From IMG/VR virus record IMGVR_UViG_3300028584_000287, positions 422-64,421 of that record: a DNA stretch of 64,000 bases. One strand, written 5' to 3'. This document shows, in pieces, positions 12,577-43,961 of the stretch (its first letter is position 1; every line of letters starts with the position of its first letter). This DNA is from a virus. The position numbers and the translations under genes are program-made. The notes under the pieces are model-generated. The model ran no database searches. It was given only the letters and a program-made list of their open reading frames with translations, and was not told the DNA's origin.

Positions 12577-12787
12577 CTGATAAATTCCTGCCTCGGAGTT
12601 TCTCTTCAAAGAGTGCATAACGAGCAACACTCAGGTCATTTTCAATCTTGTGAATAACAGCAACCATCGCTTTTATCCCATCGTTCAAGTCTTTAATCTG
12701 CTGGTCTGTCTTAGATTTGTCATAGAAGAACCAAGCTTGGATGACACCTAATAGGACCATAATTATATCAGTGGCGTTCAATTGCAT
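12569..12787 (-). CDS. Small single-TM plus coiled-coil protein (holin/antiholin-like)
   Basis: 72 aa from the ATG at 12787 with AAGGA RBS; TM IIMVLLGVIQAWFFY then a coiled coil; located in the lysis cluster. Confidence 0.55.
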   Translation of the reverse strand: MQLNATDIIMVLLGVIQAWFFYDKSKTDQQIKDLNDGIKAMVAVIHKIENDLSVARYALFEEKLRGRNLSDD

Positions 12788-21957: not shown

Positions 21958-21970
21958 GGTCCTTCGGACC
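21958..21970 (+). promoter_or_regulatory. N4-type vRNAP hairpin promoter
   Basis: GGTCC-TTC-GGACC then TGAA; template loop C-GAA-G; upstream of the first early gene. Confidence 0.7.
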
Positions 21971-22017
21971 TGAATAGATGGCACTTCGCCCATCGTATGC
22001 GTAACAAGGAGACTCTC

Positions 22018-22275
22018 ATGTCTAACGCAACTGTAGTATCTGCTCGTAAACCTATGGGCTTCTTCCGTTCTTTAGCTTCACCTATCTATGCTATCGGACG
22101 GATCTTCTCTGCTGCTGAACGTGCTGCTAACGTAGTGGACATGTACGCTGAACAGCTTGAGACTGAGACTGAGATTGCATTGGTTCCTGCACTCACTCGC
22201 CTTGCTGTATCTCGTCAGCAAATGCAGGCTAACATCGCTGCTGGCAAGTTGGATGATACAACGAAGAATGATTAA
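22018..22275 (+). CDS. First early gene, hypothetical
   Basis: AAGGAG RBS, ATG at 22018, 85 aa. Confidence 0.7.
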   Translation: MSNATVVSARKPMGFFRSLASPIYAIGRIFSAAERAANVVDMYAEQLETETEIALVPALTRLAVSRQQMQANIAAGKLDDTTKND

Positions 22276-22450
22276 CTCTTCGTTATGGAATAGCCTAACG
22301 GCTATTCCTTCTACCATCTGGAGGACTATCAATCCTCCGGTCCATCATACTCTAGAGCCATCGGAACTAGAGTCATTGGAACAATCCAAGCAAAAGCTTC
22401 TTGAAGCCAGAGCTAGGATGCAGAACTACATGGACAACAATTCCCTGTAG
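22268..22450 (+). CDS. Early hypothetical protein
   Basis: 60 aa from the ATG at 22268, overlapping the previous stop. Confidence 0.5.
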   Translation: MINSSLWNSLTAIPSTIWRTINPPVHHTLEPSELESLEQSKQKLLEARARMQNYMDNNSL

Positions 22451-22499
22451 TAACCATGGGAATGCTAACGCATTCCCTTTAACCATTTGGAGTTCTACC

Positions 22500-22610
22500 A
22501 TGTTCTACGCAATCTTCCTTGCACCAACTGATTCCATTGCATTAGCCATTGGACGACTAGCGTTCTCCTATGCGCTTGGCTTTACTACAACAACCCTAGC
22601 TATCTGCTAG
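22500..22610 (+). CDS. Small hydrophobic early peptide
   Basis: GGAG RBS; 36 aa; followed by a CCCTAGC/GCTAGGG terminator-like hairpin. Confidence 0.4.
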   Translation: MFYAIFLAPTDSIALAIGRLAFSYALGFTTTTLAIC

Positions 22611-22947
22611 GGCTTGTTTTTTCACACCTTTCACACCAACACCTTGGAGATAGTACGATTAAGCTAGAAAGAACCATTAGCTAATACGCTCTAGAATCAA
22701 TTCTAAGCCATTCTTAGCCTTACCCTAAGCCATCGCACTACCTACCCTACGATAATTCCACTACGTGAGGAATAAGTGGGTAGAAATTGATAGTGAGCAG
22801 TACAATCTTAACAACTATCCCCTTTCCCTAAACCCTACCATCATTTCCCCTCAATCCTAAACATTCCCTAAACACTAATCCCATTAGTACCTATTACCCA
22901 TACATACATTAGCTAGTACTTATATACAACAAGTATTACCCACTCCT

Positions 22948-22962
22948 AAGTCCTTCGGACTT
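22948..22962 (+). promoter_or_regulatory. N4-type vRNAP hairpin promoter inside a longer inverted repeat (22928-22976)
   Basis: AAGTCC-TTC-GGACTT; flanked by ACAAGTAT/ATACTTGT. Confidence 0.65.
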
Positions 22963-23020
22963 GGAGGGATACTTGTAACTACATCCTGTAGTTGCATAAC
23001 AATTCATTCTGGAGAATGAC

Positions 23021-23353
23021 ATGAGACATGCTGGCCTTGCAGGTAAAGGTTACTACGTTGTAGTAACCAACACTAAACTTTCTACCTTCGGTAAGAAAGG
23101 TTTAGTAGTGTCATCTGACGATGACAAAGCCGTTGTTCTCTTTGAAGACAACAAGAAGATGGAGTACTCCAGAACTTCTGTTCAACTTCTAGAGAAGCAA
23201 ACCTTCTGCACTCTTGTAGTGCATAAGGGTAACGAGTACTTAGTTACTCCAAAGGATACTATCGTATCCTTGAGAACCAATCGGATTATGAAGTGGGGCG
23301 ATGAGCACCCCACTCGTAGGGAAATCTTAAATGATGCCTACATTCCTGAATAA
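23021..23353 (+). CDS. Early hypothetical protein
   Basis: GGAG RBS; 110 aa. Confidence 0.7.
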   Translation: MRHAGLAGKGYYVVVTNTKLSTFGKKGLVVSSDDDKAVVLFEDNKKMEYSRTSVQLLEKQTFCTLVVHKGNEYLVTPKDTIVSLRTNRIMKWGDEHPTRREILNDAYIPE

Positions 23354-23357
23354 TAAG

Positions 23358-23382
23358 AGCACCTTCGGGTGCTTTATTTTTT
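23358..23382 (+). terminator. UUCG terminator
   Basis: AGCACC-TTCG-GGTGCT-TTATTTTTT. Confidence 0.8.
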
Positions 23383-23386
23383 GCAT

Positions 23387-23399
23387 AGCCCTTCGGGCT
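23387..23399 (+). promoter_or_regulatory. N4-type vRNAP hairpin promoter
   Basis: AGCCC-TTC-GGGCT then TGCA, 4 nt after the terminator. Confidence 0.7.
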
Positions 23400-23427
23400 T
23401 GCACTGACATCAAACCGGAGGGAATAT

Positions 23428-23652
23428 ATGTCACGTTACCAAACAGCAGTAGCTCGCAAGCTACATGCTGCATACCTTAAATCAGGTATGACTCCAGTTG
23501 AGTTCTACAACCATATTATATCCACTCGTGGGCATAGTATTGTTAGTGTAAGACTCAATGAACTCTCATTCAAAATACATGTACCAGAATATGGTGATGA
23601 TATTGAATGGTATGGCTGGGATGAACAATCCCAGCTATGGCTGGAACTATAA
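23428..23652 (+). CDS. Early hypothetical protein
   Basis: GGAGG RBS; 74 aa. Confidence 0.7.
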   Translation: MSRYQTAVARKLHAAYLKSGMTPVEFYNHIISTRGHSIVSVRLNELSFKIHVPEYGDDIEWYGWDEQSQLWLEL

Positions 23653-23655
23653 CAT

Positions 23656-23681
23656 GCACTCTTCGGAGTGCTTTGTTTTTT
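23656..23681 (+). terminator. UUCG terminator
   Basis: GCACTC-TTCG-GAGTGC-TTTGTTTTTT. Confidence 0.8.
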
Positions 23682-23686
23682 GGTAT

Positions 23687-23699
23687 GGAGCTTCGCTCC
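23687..23699 (+). promoter_or_regulatory. N4-type vRNAP hairpin promoter
   Basis: GGAGC-TTC-GCTCC then TGAA, directly after the terminator. Confidence 0.7.
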
Positions 23700-23751
23700 T
23701 GAATCGGTGTTGGGTGCATTCGCACCCTCAATTTTATTGGAGACAGTACCT

Positions 23752-24039
23752 ATGTGCACCGTGGTCAATAAATACAAATCTCCGTTCGATGTTTACATTG
23801 GACGAGGTAGTGTATGGGGCAATCCATATCCTATGCAAAGTGAAGCGGATAGAGCCAATGTAATTGAGCTATACCGCAAGCATCTGCACAAACAGATACA
23901 CGAGGGAACCGTAACCATCCCAATGCTATTGGAGTTGGACGGTAAACGCTTAGGATGCTTCTGCAAACCTAAGCCTTGTCATGGTGATGTTATTGTCCGT
24001 GCTGTTGCATGGGCTAAGGAACAAACATGCTCAAACTAA
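23752..24039 (+). CDS. DUF4326-family protein
   Basis: From the ATG at 23752 (GGAG RBS); DVYIGRGSVWGNPY and LDGKRLGCFCKPKPCHGDVI motifs. Confidence 0.85.
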   Translation: MCTVVNKYKSPFDVYIGRGSVWGNPYPMQSEADRANVIELYRKHLHKQIHEGTVTIPMLLELDGKRLGCFCKPKPCHGDVIVRAVAWAKEQTCSN

Positions 24040-24263
24040 TTAATGTGATAGCTCCATGGCATAGCCAAGAGGCTTGGTCATTGCTTATCCATTTAATCAG
24101 CTGCGGGATGCTTCGCACCCAAATCAAAGCTGAAATGGAGAAAGCTGGGTACTATGTACCCGAAGATATGATTGAATGCTTTGATAAGCTATTCGATATG
24201 ACTATTGATCTGGACATCGGATCAAGACAATACGAAGTACCTACTAAGAAGGAACAGGTATGA
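24027..24263 (+). CDS. Hypothetical protein
   Basis: AAGGA RBS; 78 aa; tiles the operon. Confidence 0.6.
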   Translation: MLKLINVIAPWHSQEAWSLLIHLISCGMLRTQIKAEMEKAGYYVPEDMIECFDKLFDMTIDLDIGSRQYEVPTKKEQV

Positions 24264-24433
24264 AATACTATGGACGTAAGACCGTGGGTAGCGTAATAGC
24301 TACCCAATTCTTTATCATTGGTGTTGTTGGAGTTGATCTATGAATATATTCATGGCAATTGTATCTGTCATTATTATGGCCGTGCTCGTAGGCTTAATTG
24401 CCTACGCAGCAATAACTACAGGGAACAACTAAC

Positions 24434-24727
24434 ATGCTAGAAAAAGTATTCTGGTATTGTATCGCAGCTATCTTAACTATTTCATTGTTACAAACAATAC
24501 AGAATAGTTTAGATGAAAGACCACAATCTACAGTTCATTCAGACCAAGTTATATTACTTGTAATGGATGGACTGAGGGCTAATAACCCTAATGTGGGTGA
24601 AACATGTATTGTAGTAGCTGCTAATTTATTAGTAGGTGACTACAATACTGTAGAGCACATGATGCCAGTACATGGCAAGTGTGCTACTAAACTAATTGGT
24701 ATGTACGTAAGTAAGGACCAACTATGA
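24434..24727 (+). CDS. Hypothetical protein with an N-terminal TM segment
   Basis: 97 aa; hydrophobic N-terminus. Confidence 0.55.
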   Translation: MLEKVFWYCIAAILTISLLQTIQNSLDERPQSTVHSDQVILLVMDGLRANNPNVGETCIVVAANLLVGDYNTVEHMMPVHGKCATKLIGMYVSKDQL

Positions 24728-24915
24728 ACATTACTTTAAAGTACCAACCAGTAACATACAAAGCTGGTTGGGATTGTAATGGAGTATGGGCATTACATGT
24801 GAACCTATCTGATAATTCATTCATGTTCCTGTTCTATACTAAACCAACAGCTAGACAGATACGTCGCACTGTTAAACGTGCAAAACGTAAGGTATGGAGA
24901 TACGATTCATTATGA
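24724..24915 (+). CDS. Hypothetical protein
   Basis: AAGGA RBS; ATGA overlaps at both ends. Confidence 0.6.
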   Translation: MNITLKYQPVTYKAGWDCNGVWALHVNLSDNSFMFLFYTKPTARQIRRTVKRAKRKVWRYDSL

Positions 24916-25271
24916 AGCTAATCATAGCTGGAGGGCGTGATTTTGTTGATATGTCATACGCTATTGAGTGCATCAATAGACTGATAGATCAAGGCAAGAT
25001 CAAAGAAGAAGGCTTGGAGATTGTTTCAGGTATGGCCCGTGGGGCTGATACCGTAGCAATCAACATAGCTAAGTCTAACAACCTTACATTGCATGAGTTC
25101 CCAGCTGATTGGGACAAGCATGGTAAGGCCGCAGGATATCTGCGGAACATAGATATGGCCAAGTTCTCAGATGCTCTTGTAGCATTCTGGGATGGCCAAT
25201 CTAAGGGTACTGAGCACATGATTCAAACCATGCGCTCGAAAAACAAACCGGTATATGTATTCCGGTACTGA
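24912..25271 (+). CDS. SLOG-superfamily protein (DUF2493/YspA-like)
   Basis: MKLIIAGGRDF, IVSGMARGAD, FPADWDKHGKAAGYLRN, VAFWDGQSKGT motifs. Confidence 0.85.
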   Translation: MKLIIAGGRDFVDMSYAIECINRLIDQGKIKEEGLEIVSGMARGADTVAINIAKSNNLTLHEFPADWDKHGKAAGYLRNIDMAKFSDALVAFWDGQSKGTEHMIQTMRSKNKPVYVFRY

Positions 25272-25284
25272 AAGCTCCGCTTTC
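25270..25284 (+). promoter_or_regulatory. N4 P2-like hairpin
   Basis: GAAAGC-TCC-GCTTTC; the core AAGCTCCGCTT matches the N4 P2 core as recalled. Confidence 0.65.
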
Positions 25285-25292
25285 ATTTATGA

Positions 25293-25319
25293 AAGACACC
25301 TTTATGGTGTCTTTTTTTT
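25293..25319 (+). terminator. Intrinsic terminator
   Basis: AAGACACC-TTTAT-GGTGTCTT plus T run. Confidence 0.8.
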
Positions 25320-25349
25320 GCTATAGCTAGTATCACTGCTTCGCTCTTT

Positions 25350-25362
25350 GCCCCGTCGGGGC
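25350..25362 (+). promoter_or_regulatory. vRNAP-type hairpin with a variant loop
   Basis: GCCCC-GTC-GGGGC then TGTA. Confidence 0.5.
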
Positions 25363-25397
25363 TGTAAAGACAATCCTGTCAATCTTGGAGGTTAATC

Positions 25398-25499
25398 ATG
25401 GCATTCACTGCGTATTATGTAACTAAGAACCAAGTATCAAAACTTGGTAAATACCCAACTAAACAGGCTTGTATCCGCAAGCTACTGGGTAGCAAATGA
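25398..25499 (+). CDS. 33-aa basic early peptide
   Basis: GGAGG RBS; below the ORF track cut-off. Confidence 0.5.
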   Translation: MAFTAYYVTKNQVSKLGKYPTKQACIRKLLGSK

Positions 25500-25634
25500 A
25501 TCTGATTGCTTTAATCATTCTGTTCTTCCTTATGTTCCTGAACATGAAGAACAAACAATTGGACAATGTTGATAAATCATTCTCCATAGTATTGCTATCA
25601 GTTCTGATTATATTGGAACTGTTGGCATTGTAAT

Positions 25635-25647
25635 GTCCCTTCGGGAC
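25635..25647 (+). promoter_or_regulatory. N4-type vRNAP hairpin promoter upstream of the gp2-like gene
   Basis: GTCCC-TTC-GGGAC then TGAA. Confidence 0.7.
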
Positions 25648-41687: not shown

Positions 41688-42136
41688 CCCAAGAAGTTGA
41701 ACTTAAATTTGAAGCTCCACAACCGGAGCAGATCGCTAAAAGCATTCGTGAAGGTGTTATGAACAACTTCATCGAACAGCTTGATGTAGCAATTGCTGCC
41801 AAGAGTCCATTCATGGATGCCTTGGTGCAAAGCGGTAACATTACCGTGGGACCAGACAACAAGGTGCTTACTGTATCTGAATACCTTCAGAACGTAATGC
41901 ACACAAGCGTTGACGAAGTTACCTCTAAGATTGGTTTCTGCATGGTGCGTAATGCTCACATGTTTAATATCACTCCTGAAGGTAGTATGGCCCCTGTAGA
42001 AGTTCGTGATGTACTACGAGCTACTTCAAAAGACGGTATTACTAAATACGTAACCGCCAAACTCGTACTAACTGTTGAACCTTCCACCGAAGAAGAAACA
42101 GCTATGGCCGAGAAACGTAACGCAGTGGTTTCTTAA
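41684..42136 (+). CDS. Hypothetical protein
   Basis: 150 aa; ATGA overlap. Confidence 0.65.
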   Translation: MTQEVELKFEAPQPEQIAKSIREGVMNNFIEQLDVAIAAKSPFMDALVQSGNITVGPDNKVLTVSEYLQNVMHTSVDEVTSKIGFCMVRNAHMFNITPEGSMAPVEVRDVLRATSKDGITKYVTAKLVLTVEPSTEEETAMAEKRNAVVS

Positions 42137-42349
42137 CTACGTTGCAATGCCTGTAACCTTATGCAATACTTCTTGCGCGGTTACAGGCAGCATCTACACT
42201 AACTCTAAGTCCCAGACAACTTAACGAGTTCCCCAGTGCCAGTAGGTGTAGATTAGTGGGTTAACAGGTACAATAATTGATAGGTGTGACTTCCTACACA
42301 GCTTTAGTTTTTGCGTTGTCCCTAAAGCAACCTAGGCAATTATCCTAAG

Positions 42350-42378
42350 AACCCTTCCCTAATAAGAAGGGTTTTTTT
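42350..42378 (+). terminator. Intrinsic terminator
   Basis: AACCCTTC-8 nt-GAAGGGTT plus T run. Confidence 0.7.
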
Positions 42379-42385
42379 GTCTTTA

Positions 42386-42398
42386 CCCACTCCGTGGG
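42386..42398 (+). promoter_or_regulatory. vRNAP-type hairpin in front of the ncRNA array
   Basis: CCCAC-TCC-GTGGG, 7 nt after the terminator, the same layout as the early units. Confidence 0.5.
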
Positions 42399-42413
42399 CT
42401 TTTGTGAGAAATA

Positions 42414-42499
42414 CAATCTATTGGTTTGGTGTTTACTCACCTCGACTGTACCAGCTAACGCGCAGCTATCAGGATGTAGACACCAAAGCCAATGGGTTG
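42414..42499 (+). ncRNA. Stem-loop element A of a three-member hairpin array
   Basis: CAATCTATTGGTTTGGTGTTT (42414-34) pairs with AGACACCAAAGCCAATGGGTTG (42478-99). Confidence 0.65.
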
Positions 42500-42584
42500 A
42501 ATACCCAAACATGGCGAATTGCTGGAACTAAACCTCCAGCCAACGGTTGTAGGTGACGATGGTAGATACGGGAACCTTCACTTT

Positions 42585-42712
42585 TAATTCATTAGTCTGG
42601 TGTTTCAGCCCTCGCTTAGGGGCCATAAAAAAGCTTTATCCACATTTAGCAATGGTCGCAACATTCTGTGGTTACATCAGTCTTTATAAGAAACATCAGA
42701 ACTAATGAGTTG
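42585..42712 (+). ncRNA. Stem-loop element B
   Basis: TAATTCATTAGTCTGGTGTTTC (42585-606) pairs with GAAACATCAGAACTAATGAGTTG (42690-712). Confidence 0.65.
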
Positions 42713-42815
42713 AATGCGGCTAAGCGCACGTTGTCGGTTTATGGCCCGCGCTATATAGAACAACAGTAACGTATAACCGTATCGTTACACTGAGAGGCAC
42801 TCAGCAACTCATTAC

Positions 42816-42903
42816 TTAATTCATTAGTTTGGTGTTTTGCTTAGGCGCTTACGGCTTCATTGCGACGGAACCGATAAGCGAGACACCAAAACTAATGAGT
42901 TAA
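42816..42903 (+). ncRNA. Stem-loop element C
   Basis: TTAATTCATTAGTTTGGTGTTTTGCTTA pairs with TAAGCGAGACACCAAAACTAATGAGTTAA. Confidence 0.65.
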
Positions 42904-43281
42904 AAGCCCACAGGTGTCCAGTGAATATTGGACTAATTCATTAACTGGATGACTACGCATCGTAACCAGTATAAACAAAAAGATATGGGACCAGTTTTTT
43001 GGTATGTCCCAAGTACCCCACGGAGGGTAGAGTGGATGTGTAATGCTCTAACGAGCTATGCTTATGCAGCTTCTGCTAAAAACTCTAAAACCAATTTACG
43101 GGGTGGCATGGTGCAGTGTGGCACATTTGGGTTCGATTCCCTTTACCGGTAACATGGCTTTGCAAGGCTATGGCAGACCTATACTAGGAATGGAATGCTG
43201 CTGGTATCTTCTGGCGTGAGACTGCTTAACACTTACGGTTCGAGTCCGTACACTTCACCTTTATTTAACTAAGGAAATCCT

Positions 43282-43458
43282 ATGGTTCCCGAAGATATAA
43301 AACAATGGTATTTATCTAGGGAACCTCAAGATAAAACCGATGAAATCATTGTAGAACTGATCGAAGAAATTCAAGCTCTCGCTGAAGCACTTAAAGAGGC
43401 TAACGAAAATACTGTTATTTGGAAAAAACGATATCAAGAATTTTCATCAAAAATTTAA
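43282..43458 (+). CDS. 58-aa coiled-coil protein
   Basis: AAGGA RBS; MVPEDIKQWYL...; below the track cut-off. Confidence 0.6.
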   Translation: MVPEDIKQWYLSREPQDKTDEIIVELIEEIQALAEALKEANENTVIWKKRYQEFSSKI

Positions 43459-43472
43459 TTAAAGGTGTATCC

Positions 43473-43961
43473 ATGAAAATAGACTGGAAGGTCGTAAGCC
43501 AGTCTGCTGGCTACATTTCAATCAAGAAAGCTTATGCTGCTCAACTATCCAGTGCTAACAGATCTAACCAGAAATGGAAGCACGATAAAAGTTGGAATCT
43601 CGAAGAAGCAAAGAAACGATTTGCTTGGATCATAGCTAGAGCCGTCCATTACGCTTACCACAAGCAGACTACTGTAGATGTTATTCTTAACCAATGGGAA
43701 GAGAAAAGAACGTACAGTTGGGGAAGTTACTACGGGGATCAAACATTTCCTAAGCTTGATAAAAATAGTGAACATGTTGCTCAAAGATCAGCCAAAAGCT
43801 GGGCTTTAAAAGAGTACCCTAACGATCCTGTAAAAAGAAAAGAAAGATATTTTTCTTATCTTTTGAGAGAAGCCCGAGATAAACGTAAGCGTAAGGGTTC
43901 AAAAGCTCGCTGGGATAAATCAACTAGAGAATACCGCAAGCTTATTAAAAGAAGTCCGTAA
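43473..43961 (+). CDS. Basic hypothetical protein
   Basis: AAGGT RBS, ATG at 43473 (MKIDWKVVSQS). Confidence 0.65.
   Translation: MKIDWKVVSQSAGYISIKKAYAAQLSSANRSNQKWKHDKSWNLEEAKKRFAWIIARAVHYAYHKQTTVDVILNQWEEKRTYSWGSYYGDQTFPKLDKNSEHVAQRSAKSWALKEYPNDPVKRKERYFSYLLREARDKRKRKGSKARWDKSTREYRKLIKRSP

What the first reader, a model, noticed from the sequence alone, without database searches (positions are those of the whole stretch)
42386..42945. Array of three long RNA hairpins with a conserved, covarying stem and variable cargo, behind a vRNAP-type promoter
Seen: about 560 nt without a credible ORF hold three stem-loops (42414-42499, 42585-42712, 42816-42903). Their ~21-bp basal stems are homologous: 5' arm (T/C)AAT(T/C)(C/T)ATT(A/G)GT(T/C)TGGTGTTT, 3' arm A(G/A)ACA(C/T)CA(A/G)A(A/G)C(T/C)AATG(A/G)GTT. 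The interiors (about 30-83 nt) are unrelated. Differences between copies keep pairing: position 1 C-G vs T-A, position 5 C-G vs T-A, position 10 G-C vs A-T, position 13 C-G vs T-A. All copies keep a U.G pair at position 4 and one bulged A on the 3' arm. The G.U pairs only work on the plus strand. The array sits just after a terminator plus CCCAC-TCC-GTGGG hairpin, the same layout as the early transcription units. Inference: a polycistronic small-RNA cassette in which a constant dsRNA stem is a processing signal (RNase III-like) or a protein-binding decoy, possibly made early by the vRNAP as an anti-defence RNA. I recognise no named family for it.
Basis: partly seen in the sequence, partly recalled or inferred. 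Interest (0 to 1): 0.88.

Follow-up and report, generated by a model that had tools for sequence, protein, structure and literature searches.

The report
Phage small-RNA cassettes with shared stem
The three long hairpins are real, strand-specific RNA-type structures from a previously unnamed family found in about 30 uncultured phages and two prophages; a conserved 21-base-pair stem frames exchangeable inner sequences beside tRNA genes and tRNA-shaped small RNAs, and their function is untested.

Summary
Observation confirmed. Three hairpins (42414-42499, 42585-42712, 42817-42902) share a 21-bp stem around unrelated interiors. They fold 8-10 kcal/mol better on the + strand.

The family extends well beyond this window. 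A covariance model finds 36 units in 27 viral contigs, including three N4-like phages, lambdoid-type phages and a Rheinheimera soli prophage. It finds none in cultured phages, and Rfam has no match. The helix is paired in 98% of cells, and 10 of 21 pairs show changes on both sides. Some units replace the whole inner stem and still pair.

Close relatives in lake and wastewater runs keep the arms of hairpin 2 but replace its interior exactly at the stem boundaries.

The hairpins are only half of the array. The outer 3' arm also pairs with a covarying complement 30-200 nt downstream, closing a second module. In the window that module (42700-42817) is homologous to the core of the prophage sRNA STnc100, as seen in phage P1. 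In relatives, real tRNAs follow the hairpins, and some interiors are tRNA-shaped.

Best reading: a polycistronic small-RNA and tRNA-like cassette array. The stem would be a processing and scaffold helix, probably cut by RNase III. Anti-defence is unsupported.

This scan has noted similar hairpin-plus-STnc100-like arrays before on other phage DNA.

The parts
42347..42381 (+). Intrinsic terminator ending the upstream transcription unit
   Evidence: 11-bp stem followed by a T-run
42386..42398 (+). CCCAC-TCC-GTGGG hairpin (5-bp stem, 3-nt loop). It could be an N4-type vRNAP promoter or a second small terminator.
   Evidence: It is the only such sequence in the window. Five hairpins of the same layout lie at 21958, 23387, 23687, 25350 and 25635. 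The scan also flags it as terminator-like.
42414..42499 (+). Hairpin unit H1. 5' arm 42414-42434, 3' arm 42478-42499, interior 43 nt.
   Evidence: Fold -37.2 kcal/mol, z -5.5. CM R1 gives 64.9 bits on + against 31.4 on -. The interior is 80% identical to the first element of the L012 array.
42500..42584 (+). Spacer module S1: a small variable hairpin plus a highly conserved 41-nt core (42539-42579)
   Evidence: 75% identity over 116 nt to L156. The core is 88-90% identical to intergenic DNA just after tRNA-Asn in Xanthomonas phage JGB6 and Pseudomonas phage HU1.
42585..42712 (+). Hairpin unit H2. 5' arm 42585-42605, 3' arm 42691-42712, interior 85 nt.
   Evidence: Fold -41.9 kcal/mol, z -5.7. 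R1 gives 51.8 bits on + against 27.7 on -. Relatives replace the interior at 42605/42691 or 42593/42700.
42700..42817 (+). Module M2: an STnc100-core-like, tRNA-shaped domain. It is closed by helix P2 (42700-42712 with 42805-42817), so it shares the outer 3' arm of H2. It contains the GCGGCUAAGCGC hairpin and the CUGAG-AGGCA-CUCAG hairpin (42790-42804).
   Evidence: Inverted repeat I6. P2 covaries across units.
42817..42902 (+). Hairpin unit H3. 5' arm 42817-42837, 3' arm 42881-42902, interior 43 nt.
   Evidence: Fold -39.8 kcal/mol, z -6.8. R1 gives 62.4 bits on + against 38.3 on -. Relatives show a 42837/42881 U-A to C-G change.
42893..42943 (+). Tail module. The outer 3' arm of H3 (42893-42902) pairs with TAATTCATTA (42934-42943). 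This encloses AAAGCCCACAGGTGTC and a small hairpin (42916-42933).
   Evidence: Repeat D3, third copy. A homologous tail with a covarying hairpin follows the last hairpin of L011.

Best explanation
The region is one co-oriented transcription unit of small structured RNAs: H1, S1, H2, M2, H3 and a tail module.

Each H unit is a cassette. Its conserved helix of about 21 bp holds an exchangeable interior. In several relatives that helix is a leader:trailer extension of a tRNA-like acceptor stem.

The outer 9-12 nt of the 3' arm can pair in two ways. It can pair with the 5' arm, using two or three G.U pairs, or with a perfect complement downstream that closes the next module. The two folds are predicted to be nearly equal in energy.

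Inferred mechanism: the full hairpin forms first during transcription and is cut as dsRNA, most likely by host RNase III. The weak outer duplex then falls apart. The freed strand closes the downstream STnc100-like or tRNA-shaped module, and separate stable small RNAs result.

The conserved arms also act as short homology handles, at which phages of different families swap interiors.

Shown here: the structure, its strand specificity, covariation, family distribution, the second helix, the STnc100-core homology of M2 and the interior swapping. Inferred: transcription, RNase III cleavage, refolding after the cut, and any downstream function.
For: Folds and strand asymmetry: where the correct strand scores 20-35 bits above its reverse complement.

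Covariation: 31 units, 98.3% of cells paired, 10 of 21 pairs with changes on both sides, 0 of 500 shuffles as high, and slid controls at most 51% paired. The inner stem is replaced wholesale with pairing kept in L156b, L011a, L338 and L340. More compensations occur in L321, L323 and in the metagenomic relatives.

Distribution: 36 units in 27 contigs, none in 28 control loci. Three carriers are N4-like and the others are not.

Second helix: exact complements average 6.8 nt against 2.6 nt for shuffled arms, and the helix covaries (AAUGAGCUG/CAGCUCAUU, AAUAAGCUG/CAGCUUAUU, AAUGAGUUG/CAACUCAUU). The two conformers differ by about 2 kcal/mol at the median.

RNA context: real tRNAs lie directly after H or M units in 7 loci. 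The interiors of L146, L063 and L340 are tRNA-shaped, with T-arms. The L052 array ends in an intrinsic terminator.

M2 and STnc100.

Interior swapping at the arm boundaries.

Precedent for RNase III and RNase E release of a prophage sRNA from a polycistronic transcript: PMC5069750.
Against: There is no transcript evidence. The runs that hold the sequence are assembled contigs, mostly DNA.

RNase III needs helix length, not sequence. The near-identity of the arms across unrelated phages is therefore more than a processing signal requires. It suggests either sequence-specific recognition or frequent horizontal exchange.

A leader fully paired to its trailer would hinder RNase P, so the tRNA-like reading of the stem does not predict easy maturation.

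The promoter assignment is only a resemblance.

The energies of the two conformers are predictions.
Confidence: 0.5

Rival explanations
1. The conserved stem is a sequence-specific binding site for a protein, and the array acts as a decoy, sponge or guide scaffold. The protein could be a host RNA chaperone, a nuclease, a defence sensor or a tRNA enzyme. The variable interiors would supply specificity, possibly for anti-defence or host takeover early in infection.
For: The arms are about 90-100% identical across contigs whose neighbouring genes are unrelated. That is more conservation than structure alone needs. The U.G pair and the central AUU/AAU are nearly invariant. Interiors differ between near-identical strains, as expected under diversifying selection. 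In the window the array may be made by the injected vRNAP.
Against: No candidate partner is encoded nearby. There is no TROVE or DUF2828 domain and no family is shared by more than 5 of 27 loci. The inner half of the stem can be replaced entirely, so only the outer half is sequence-constrained. That half is already constrained by pairing with two partners. The interiors have no antisense matches in the phage's own genome above shuffled controls.
Confidence: 0.2
2. The units are tRNA-derived frames. The inner stem would be an acceptor stem and the outer helix a leader:trailer pairing. RNase P and the 3' trimming enzymes would release tRNA mimics that engage tRNA-binding enzymes or tRNA-targeting toxins.
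For: ARAGORN draws the L146 unit as a cloverleaf with a canonical T-arm. L063 and L340 also have a T-arm beside the 3' strand. The bulged A lies roughly where a discriminator base would, and many 3' arms read ACCAAA-R-CCA. The units sit in tRNA arrays.
Against: The three window units, and most others, have interiors too short or not cloverleaf-like. ARAGORN and the Rfam tRNA model do not detect them. The CCA is CUA in two window copies, where pairing is kept instead. The register of the L146 T-arm does not place the CCA at the 3' end. A paired leader and trailer disfavours RNase P.
Confidence: 0.15
3. This is a DNA-level element. The inverted repeats would fold as single-stranded DNA hairpins or act as recombination sites, attC-like or as short homology linkers. 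They would mobilise small cassettes, and the RNA structure would be incidental.
For: Interiors are exchanged exactly at the arm boundaries between close relatives. The architecture resembles integron attC arrays: conserved imperfect inverted repeats around a variable centre, with strand asymmetry and an extrahelical base. A tyrosine recombinase lies 3.7 kb away in the R. soli prophage.
Against: The attC core GTTRRRY is not kept, since most units read GCTGAAT. No integron integrase is present, and no recombinase is shared among carriers. The 'cassettes' are tRNAs and structured RNAs on the same strand, with their own covarying helices. A second RNA helix shares the arm. One array ends in a terminator.
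Confidence: 0.1

Closest known systems
STnc100 (Rfam RF02076) and PasD, Hfq-associated sRNAs of lambdoid prophages (bioRxiv 10.64898/2026.05.13.724894)
   Same: Module M2, next to hairpin 2, has the STnc100 core plan. This is a closing stem, then AAU, then a GCGGCUAAGCGC-type hairpin, a variable middle, and a CYGRG-AGGCA-CYCRG hairpin abutting the closing strand. It aligns with the phage P1 copy that Rfam scores at 33 bits. Both are phage-borne and lie near tRNA genes.
   Different: The flagged hairpins themselves are not STnc100. Rfam reports no STnc100 match in the window even at E up to 10. M2 has no terminator of its own and sits inside an array. Hfq binding and seed pairing are untested.
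dicBF operon of the E. coli Qin prophage: DicF released by RNase E and RNase III from a polycistronic transcript (Faubladier 1990, as cited in PMC5069750)
   Same: A phage-derived early operon in which small RNAs are cut out of a long transcript at structured sites. P1's homologous leader carries a 'dicF-like region' ahead of its tRNAs.
   Different: No sequence similarity to DicF was found here, and cleavage of these hairpins has not been shown. The 21-bp stem conserved across phage families and its exchangeable interiors have no counterpart in dicBF.
Bacterial and phage Y RNAs (YrlA/YrlB, Rfam RF02553; PMC4201824)
   Same: RNAs of 80-130 nt with a long stem formed by the two ends and a variable or tRNA-like interior. 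They are sometimes in tandem and also occur in phages.
   Different: No Ro60/TROVE or DUF2828 gene is present in the window or the carriers tested. The Rsr motif GNCGAAN0-1G is absent from the stems (read), and there is no RF02553 match.
Integron attC sites
   Same: Arrays of imperfect inverted repeats of 57-141 nt with conserved outer arms, a variable centre, strand asymmetry and an extrahelical base. Cargo is exchanged at the repeats.
   Different: There is no GTTRRRY core, no IntI and no ORF cassettes. The intervening units are tRNAs and structured RNAs.
Engineered 'tRNA scaffold' RNAs (PMC3753655) and the stable non-tRNA species of the T4 tRNA cluster (the latter from my own knowledge)
   Same: A constant helical or tRNA frame protects an arbitrary RNA insert and directs its processing. 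Small stable RNAs of unknown function are co-transcribed with phage tRNAs.
   Different: This is analogy only, with no sequence relationship. Here the frame is a 21-bp leader:trailer helix shared with the next module.

Membership tests
STnc100 (RF02076) / PasD | Match to the Rfam covariance model at or above the gathering score (47 bits) | tested here: not met
   There is no STnc100 match in window 42000-43600 at E up to 10, nor in 7 related loci at E up to 1. P1's copy reaches 33 bits.
STnc100 (RF02076) / PasD | Core architecture: closing stem, AAU, first hairpin, and a terminal AGGCA-loop hairpin next to the closing strand | tested here: met
   This holds for module M2 (42700-42817) only, not for the flagged hairpins. 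Alignment A2 with P1 15081-15200 shows invariant AAT.CGGCTAAGCGCACG and CACYGRGARGCACYCRG, with covarying closing stems.
STnc100 (RF02076) / PasD | Hfq-associated, trans-acting sRNA with its own terminator | not testable with these tools
   M2 has no terminator after it, because H3 follows directly. Hfq binding needs an experiment.
Y RNA / YrlA (RF02553) | Encoded next to a Ro60/Rsr (TROVE) or Ro-like gene | tested here: not met
   PF05731 is absent from the window record and four carrier records, and PF11443 is absent from the window.
Y RNA / YrlA (RF02553) | Rsr-binding motif GNCGAAN0-1G in the stem, and a match to the Rfam model | tested here: not met
   The motif is not present in any arm (motif taken from PMC4201824). 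There is no RF02553 match.
tRNA | Cloverleaf with D, anticodon and T arms, detected by ARAGORN or Rfam RF00005 | tested here: not met
   The window units are not detected. Only the relative L146 is drawn as a tRNA-like cloverleaf.
Integron attC | R''/R' core sites (RYYYAAC / GTTRRRY) and an associated IntI integrase | tested here: not met
   Most 3' arms end in GAGCTGAAT. No recombinase is shared among carriers.
RNase III processing hairpin | Continuous dsRNA helix of about two turns (20 bp or more) within a polycistronic transcript | tested here: met
   There are 21 conserved pairs plus interior extensions in all units.
RNase III processing hairpin | Staggered cleavage in the helix that depends on rnc | not testable with these tools
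   This needs RNA end mapping or an in-vitro cleavage assay.
N4-type vRNAP early promoter | Hairpin with a 5-7 bp stem and a 3-nt loop upstream of the start site, recurring at early units | tested here: inconclusive
   42386-42398 has the right shape, and five similar hairpins lie at 21958-25647. Its loop and downstream bases differ from those five, and it also fits a terminator pattern.

The most novel reading that the evidence does not exclude
The conserved arms could form a portable small-RNA cassette system shared by unrelated phages of one host group. The same 21-bp helix would do two jobs. As RNA, it would be a cut-and-refold switch: its cleavage releases the interior RNA and lets the next module close. 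As DNA, it would be the homology handle through which co-infecting phages trade interiors. The interiors would then be a fast-evolving repertoire of tRNA mimics and other small RNAs used in phage-host or phage-phage conflict.
Probability: 0.22. Interest if true: 0.8.

Novelty: new variant of a known kind. Interest (0 to 1): 0.6.

Why it matters
Phage tRNA islands and early leaders are usually annotated as empty. Here they hold an organised set of structured RNAs.

One of them is a 21-bp helix kept almost letter for letter in N4-like, lambdoid-type and other phages, while its contents change between strains. If the cut-and-refold reading holds, it is a simple natural design for releasing several stable small RNAs from one transcript.

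It would also link the little-understood STnc100/PasD prophage sRNAs to a wider modular system.

A cultivable carrier exists, the Rheinheimera soli strain 4138 prophage with two units and a tRNA-Arg, so the question can be tested directly.

Tried and rejected
Rfam, at gathering and permissive thresholds, gave only noise for the hairpins.

Y-RNA/Ro reading: there is no TROVE or DUF2828 gene and no Rsr motif.

Finding relatives through neighbouring proteins failed. The 180-aa ORF and the ATPase gave no IMG/VR loci. All cultured Schitoviridae are at most 33% identical in the ATPase.

The exact window-type 5' arm in IMG/VR gave only chance matches without a 3' arm.

The 14-nt 3'-arm pattern and the genome-contig scan returned mostly chance matches and had to be filtered for the second arm. 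7 of 120 and 1 of 120 loci survived.

The apparent enrichment of CCAATRARCTG in the R. soli chromosome, 55 against 7 in the control, turned out to be scattered coding-sequence matches and not elements.

Cultured phages have no H arm. CM R1 finds nothing in P1, JGB6 or HU1.

Antisense targets of the interiors in the phage's own genome do not exceed shuffled controls.

No neighbouring protein family is shared by more than 5 of 27 loci.

Coding was rejected. The small ORFs overlap the arms and are broken by the interior replacements in relatives.

A 10-nt complement between 42394-42403 and 42902-42911 could close the whole array, but about 0.4 such matches are expected by chance. It would also lie upstream of a vRNAP start site, so I left it open.

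Full report
**What is in the window.** Positions 42137-43418 lie between + strand genes ending at 42136 and starting at 43419, and hold no credible ORF.

An intrinsic terminator (42347-42381) comes first, then a CCCAC-TCC-GTGGG hairpin (42386-42398). After these come three long hairpins: H1 at 42414-42499, H2 at 42585-42712 and H3 at 42817-42902.
- Their 5' arms match one degenerate 20-mer. It occurs three times in 64 kb against 0.08 expected by chance.
- Each folds as a single long stem at -37 to -42 kcal/mol, with z-scores of -5.5 to -6.8.
- The reverse complements are 8-10 kcal/mol weaker, because U.G pairs become C.A mismatches.

**The genome.** The window is nearly all of a 64.9-kb IMG/VR contig, estimated 87% complete.

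Its ATPase, VWA-like protein, Dda-like helicase and DNA polymerase place it among N4-like phages. It is no more than 33% identical in the ATPase to any cultured one.

Five more GC-rich hairpins (5-bp stem, 3-nt loop; TTC in four, GTC in one) lie at 21958-25647. This is where + strand transcription begins, and two of them follow T-runs directly. The vRNAP-promoter reading of 42386-42398 is therefore reasonable. However, its loop and downstream bases differ from those five, and it also fits a terminator pattern.

**The family.** Rfam has nothing for the hairpins.

A gapped pattern built from the arms found true homologues in IMG/VR. A 17-nt 5'-arm pattern then found about 30 units that also carry the matching 3' arm.

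An alignment of 31 units (A1) gives these figures:
- a 21-bp helix paired in 98.3% of cells;
- changes on both sides at 10 of 21 pairs;
- no shuffle out of 500 reaching the observed values;
- at most 51% pairing when the partner strand is slid.

U.G is kept in 28 of 31 units at one position, and is common at two others.

The covariance model R1 finds 36 units in 27 contigs. It finds exactly three in the window and none in 28 control loci that share only the 5' arm by chance. The right strand scores 20-35 bits above its reverse complement.

A scan that fixed only the outer arms recovered units whose inner stem is entirely different yet still paired. These are L338 and L340, joining L156b and L011a.

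**Who carries it.**
- Three carriers are N4-like: the window, and the complete genomes behind L052 and L156, with polymerases 37-55% identical.
- Others are lambdoid-type early regions. One is a prophage of Rheinheimera soli strain 4138, where two units and a tRNA-Arg sit upstream of a DHH-like gene, replication protein O and a DnaC-like loader.
- Only 2 of 121 sampled genomes of that bacterial family hold a unit. It is therefore phage cargo, not a host element.
- No cultured phage in the collection has it.
- Sequencing runs that hold the window's stretch or its parts come from lake water, freshwater and wastewater.

**The hairpins are half of a larger design.** In about 18 of 31 units the outer 9-12 nt of the 3' arm have an exact Watson-Crick complement 30-200 nt downstream. 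The mean longest match is 6.8 nt, against 2.6 nt for shuffled arms.

This second helix (P2) covaries: AAUGAGCUG/CAGCUCAUU, AAUAAGCUG/CAGCUUAUU, and in the window AAUGAGUUG/CAACUCAUU.

P2 closes a multi-hairpin module. In the window that module is M2 (42700-42817). It aligns with four IMG/VR modules and with the phage P1 sequence that Rfam scores as a sub-threshold STnc100 (33 bits).
- The blocks AAT.CGGCTAAGCGCACG and CACYGRGARGCACYCRG are invariant.
- The closing stems covary.

M2 is thus an STnc100-core-like domain, although Rfam does not report it here.

The outer 3' arm cannot pair with both partners at once. Constrained folds put the two alternatives about 2 kcal/mol apart at the median.

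After H3, a short tail module is closed in the same way (42893-42902 with 42934-42943) and is conserved in L011.

**The link to tRNA.**
- Genuine tRNAs follow H or M units within a few to about 100 nt in seven loci.
- ARAGORN draws the L146 unit itself as a cloverleaf, with the inner stem as acceptor and a canonical T-arm. L063 and L340 also carry a T-arm beside the 3' strand.
- In those units the conserved outer helix is a leader:trailer pairing around a tRNA-like body.
- The window's units, like most others, are plain hairpins or irregular folds.
- Spacer S1 (42500-42584) has a 41-nt core that is 88-90% identical to DNA just after tRNA-Asn in Xanthomonas phage JGB6 and Pseudomonas phage HU1.

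**Interior exchange.** I laid contigs from four public runs on the region.
- Close relatives match the flanks at about 90-99%.
- They replace the H2 interior exactly at 42605/42691, with 85 nt becoming 94 unrelated nt in two runs.
- In a third run the replacement is at 42593/42700, giving 73 nt.
- The H3 interior is heavily altered while its arms persist, and 42837/42881 changes from U-A to C-G.
- Short contigs from other genomes match only H1.

The arms are therefore the boundaries of modular exchange.

**Mechanism.** The evidence shows a strand-specific, covarying RNA-type structure embedded among tRNAs and tRNA-shaped RNAs. In L052 the array is closed by an intrinsic terminator.

The rest is inference. 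I think the array is transcribed as one RNA. The full hairpin forms first and is cut as dsRNA, most likely by RNase III. The G.U-weakened outer duplex then separates, and the freed strand closes the next module. The precedent is DicF, which is released from the dicBF prophage transcript by RNase E and RNase III (PMC5069750).

The strong sequence conservation of the outer arms is partly explained by their pairing with two partners. The arms may also be kept uniform because they serve as recombination handles.

A sequence-specific protein partner remains possible, but none is encoded nearby. Anti-defence is speculation.

**Rivals.**
- A tRNA-mimic reading fits a few relatives but not the window units.
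- An attC-like DNA element fits the architecture and the swapping. It fails on the core sites, the integrase and the nature of the cargo.
- Y RNA fails on every defining feature tested.

**Earlier notes of this scan.** Unchecked AI notes from this scan describe long hairpins paired with STnc100-like, tRNA-shaped modules in P1-like and other phages. One note concerns the alternative pairings on this same stretch.

I used them as leads and checked the following myself: the STnc100-core homology, the AGGCA hairpin, the alternative pairing, and the absence of a Ro-like gene.

The specific stem family described here is not found in P1.

**Limits.**
- No raw RNA reads were available, so transcription, RNA ends and cleavage are untested.
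- The pattern scans favour conserved arms, so sequence conservation is somewhat overestimated.
- E-values from R1 are rough.

Noticed in passing
L146 (oriented) about 12585-12630; L156 about 565-625; L318 (phage P1) 13930-13990: Arrays in relatives and in P1 carry a tmRNA-like tag module, AAAUGC(A/U)AACGA..., with short frames reading ANDTEYRQVA*, ANDDMFRAVA* and ANDDLMMVAA*. The stop codon lies in a CCUAAGAA hairpin loop. Rfam gives weak tmRNA and permuted-tmRNA matches (E 0.07 and 0.03). No such module was seen in the window.
   Followed up: partly
window 42539-42579: A 41-nt core, CAACGGTTGTAGGTGACGATGG..GATA..GGAACCTTC, is nearly identical in four unrelated phages. In two of them it follows tRNA-Asn directly. 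There is no covariation, no Rfam family and no convincing ORF, and its function is unknown.
   Followed up: partly
window 43085-43155: There is a tRNA-like remnant: a T-arm-like TTGGGTTCGATTCCCTT followed by ACCGGTAA, which can pair with TTACGG upstream. ARAGORN and Rfam do not call it. It lies inside a doubtful 67-aa ORF (42949-43152).
   Followed up: no
window 42137-42345: The 209 nt between the stop codon of the upstream gene and its terminator are also ORF-free. They contain further stems, for example CCTGTAACC...GGTTACAGG, and may be more RNA modules at the end of the upstream unit.
   Followed up: no
window 42394-42403 and 42902-42911: A perfect 10-nt complement (GTGGGCTTTT / AAAAGCCCAC) brackets the whole three-hairpin array. 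About 0.4 such matches are expected by chance in this region. It could close the array only in read-through transcripts.
   Followed up: no
window 43419-43961: A 180-aa protein of unknown function (phrog_24749) lies downstream of the array. It has a 47%-identical homologue 1.5 kb downstream of the array in the N4-like phage behind L052. The other carriers lack it.
   Followed up: partly
L012, L154, L170 (oriented), just upstream of their first RNA module: Arrays in carriers that are not N4-like begin after a shared GTGGTAGTATTTGTTTTG element. It looks like an extended -10 promoter, which suggests an independent sigma-70 transcription unit.
   Followed up: no
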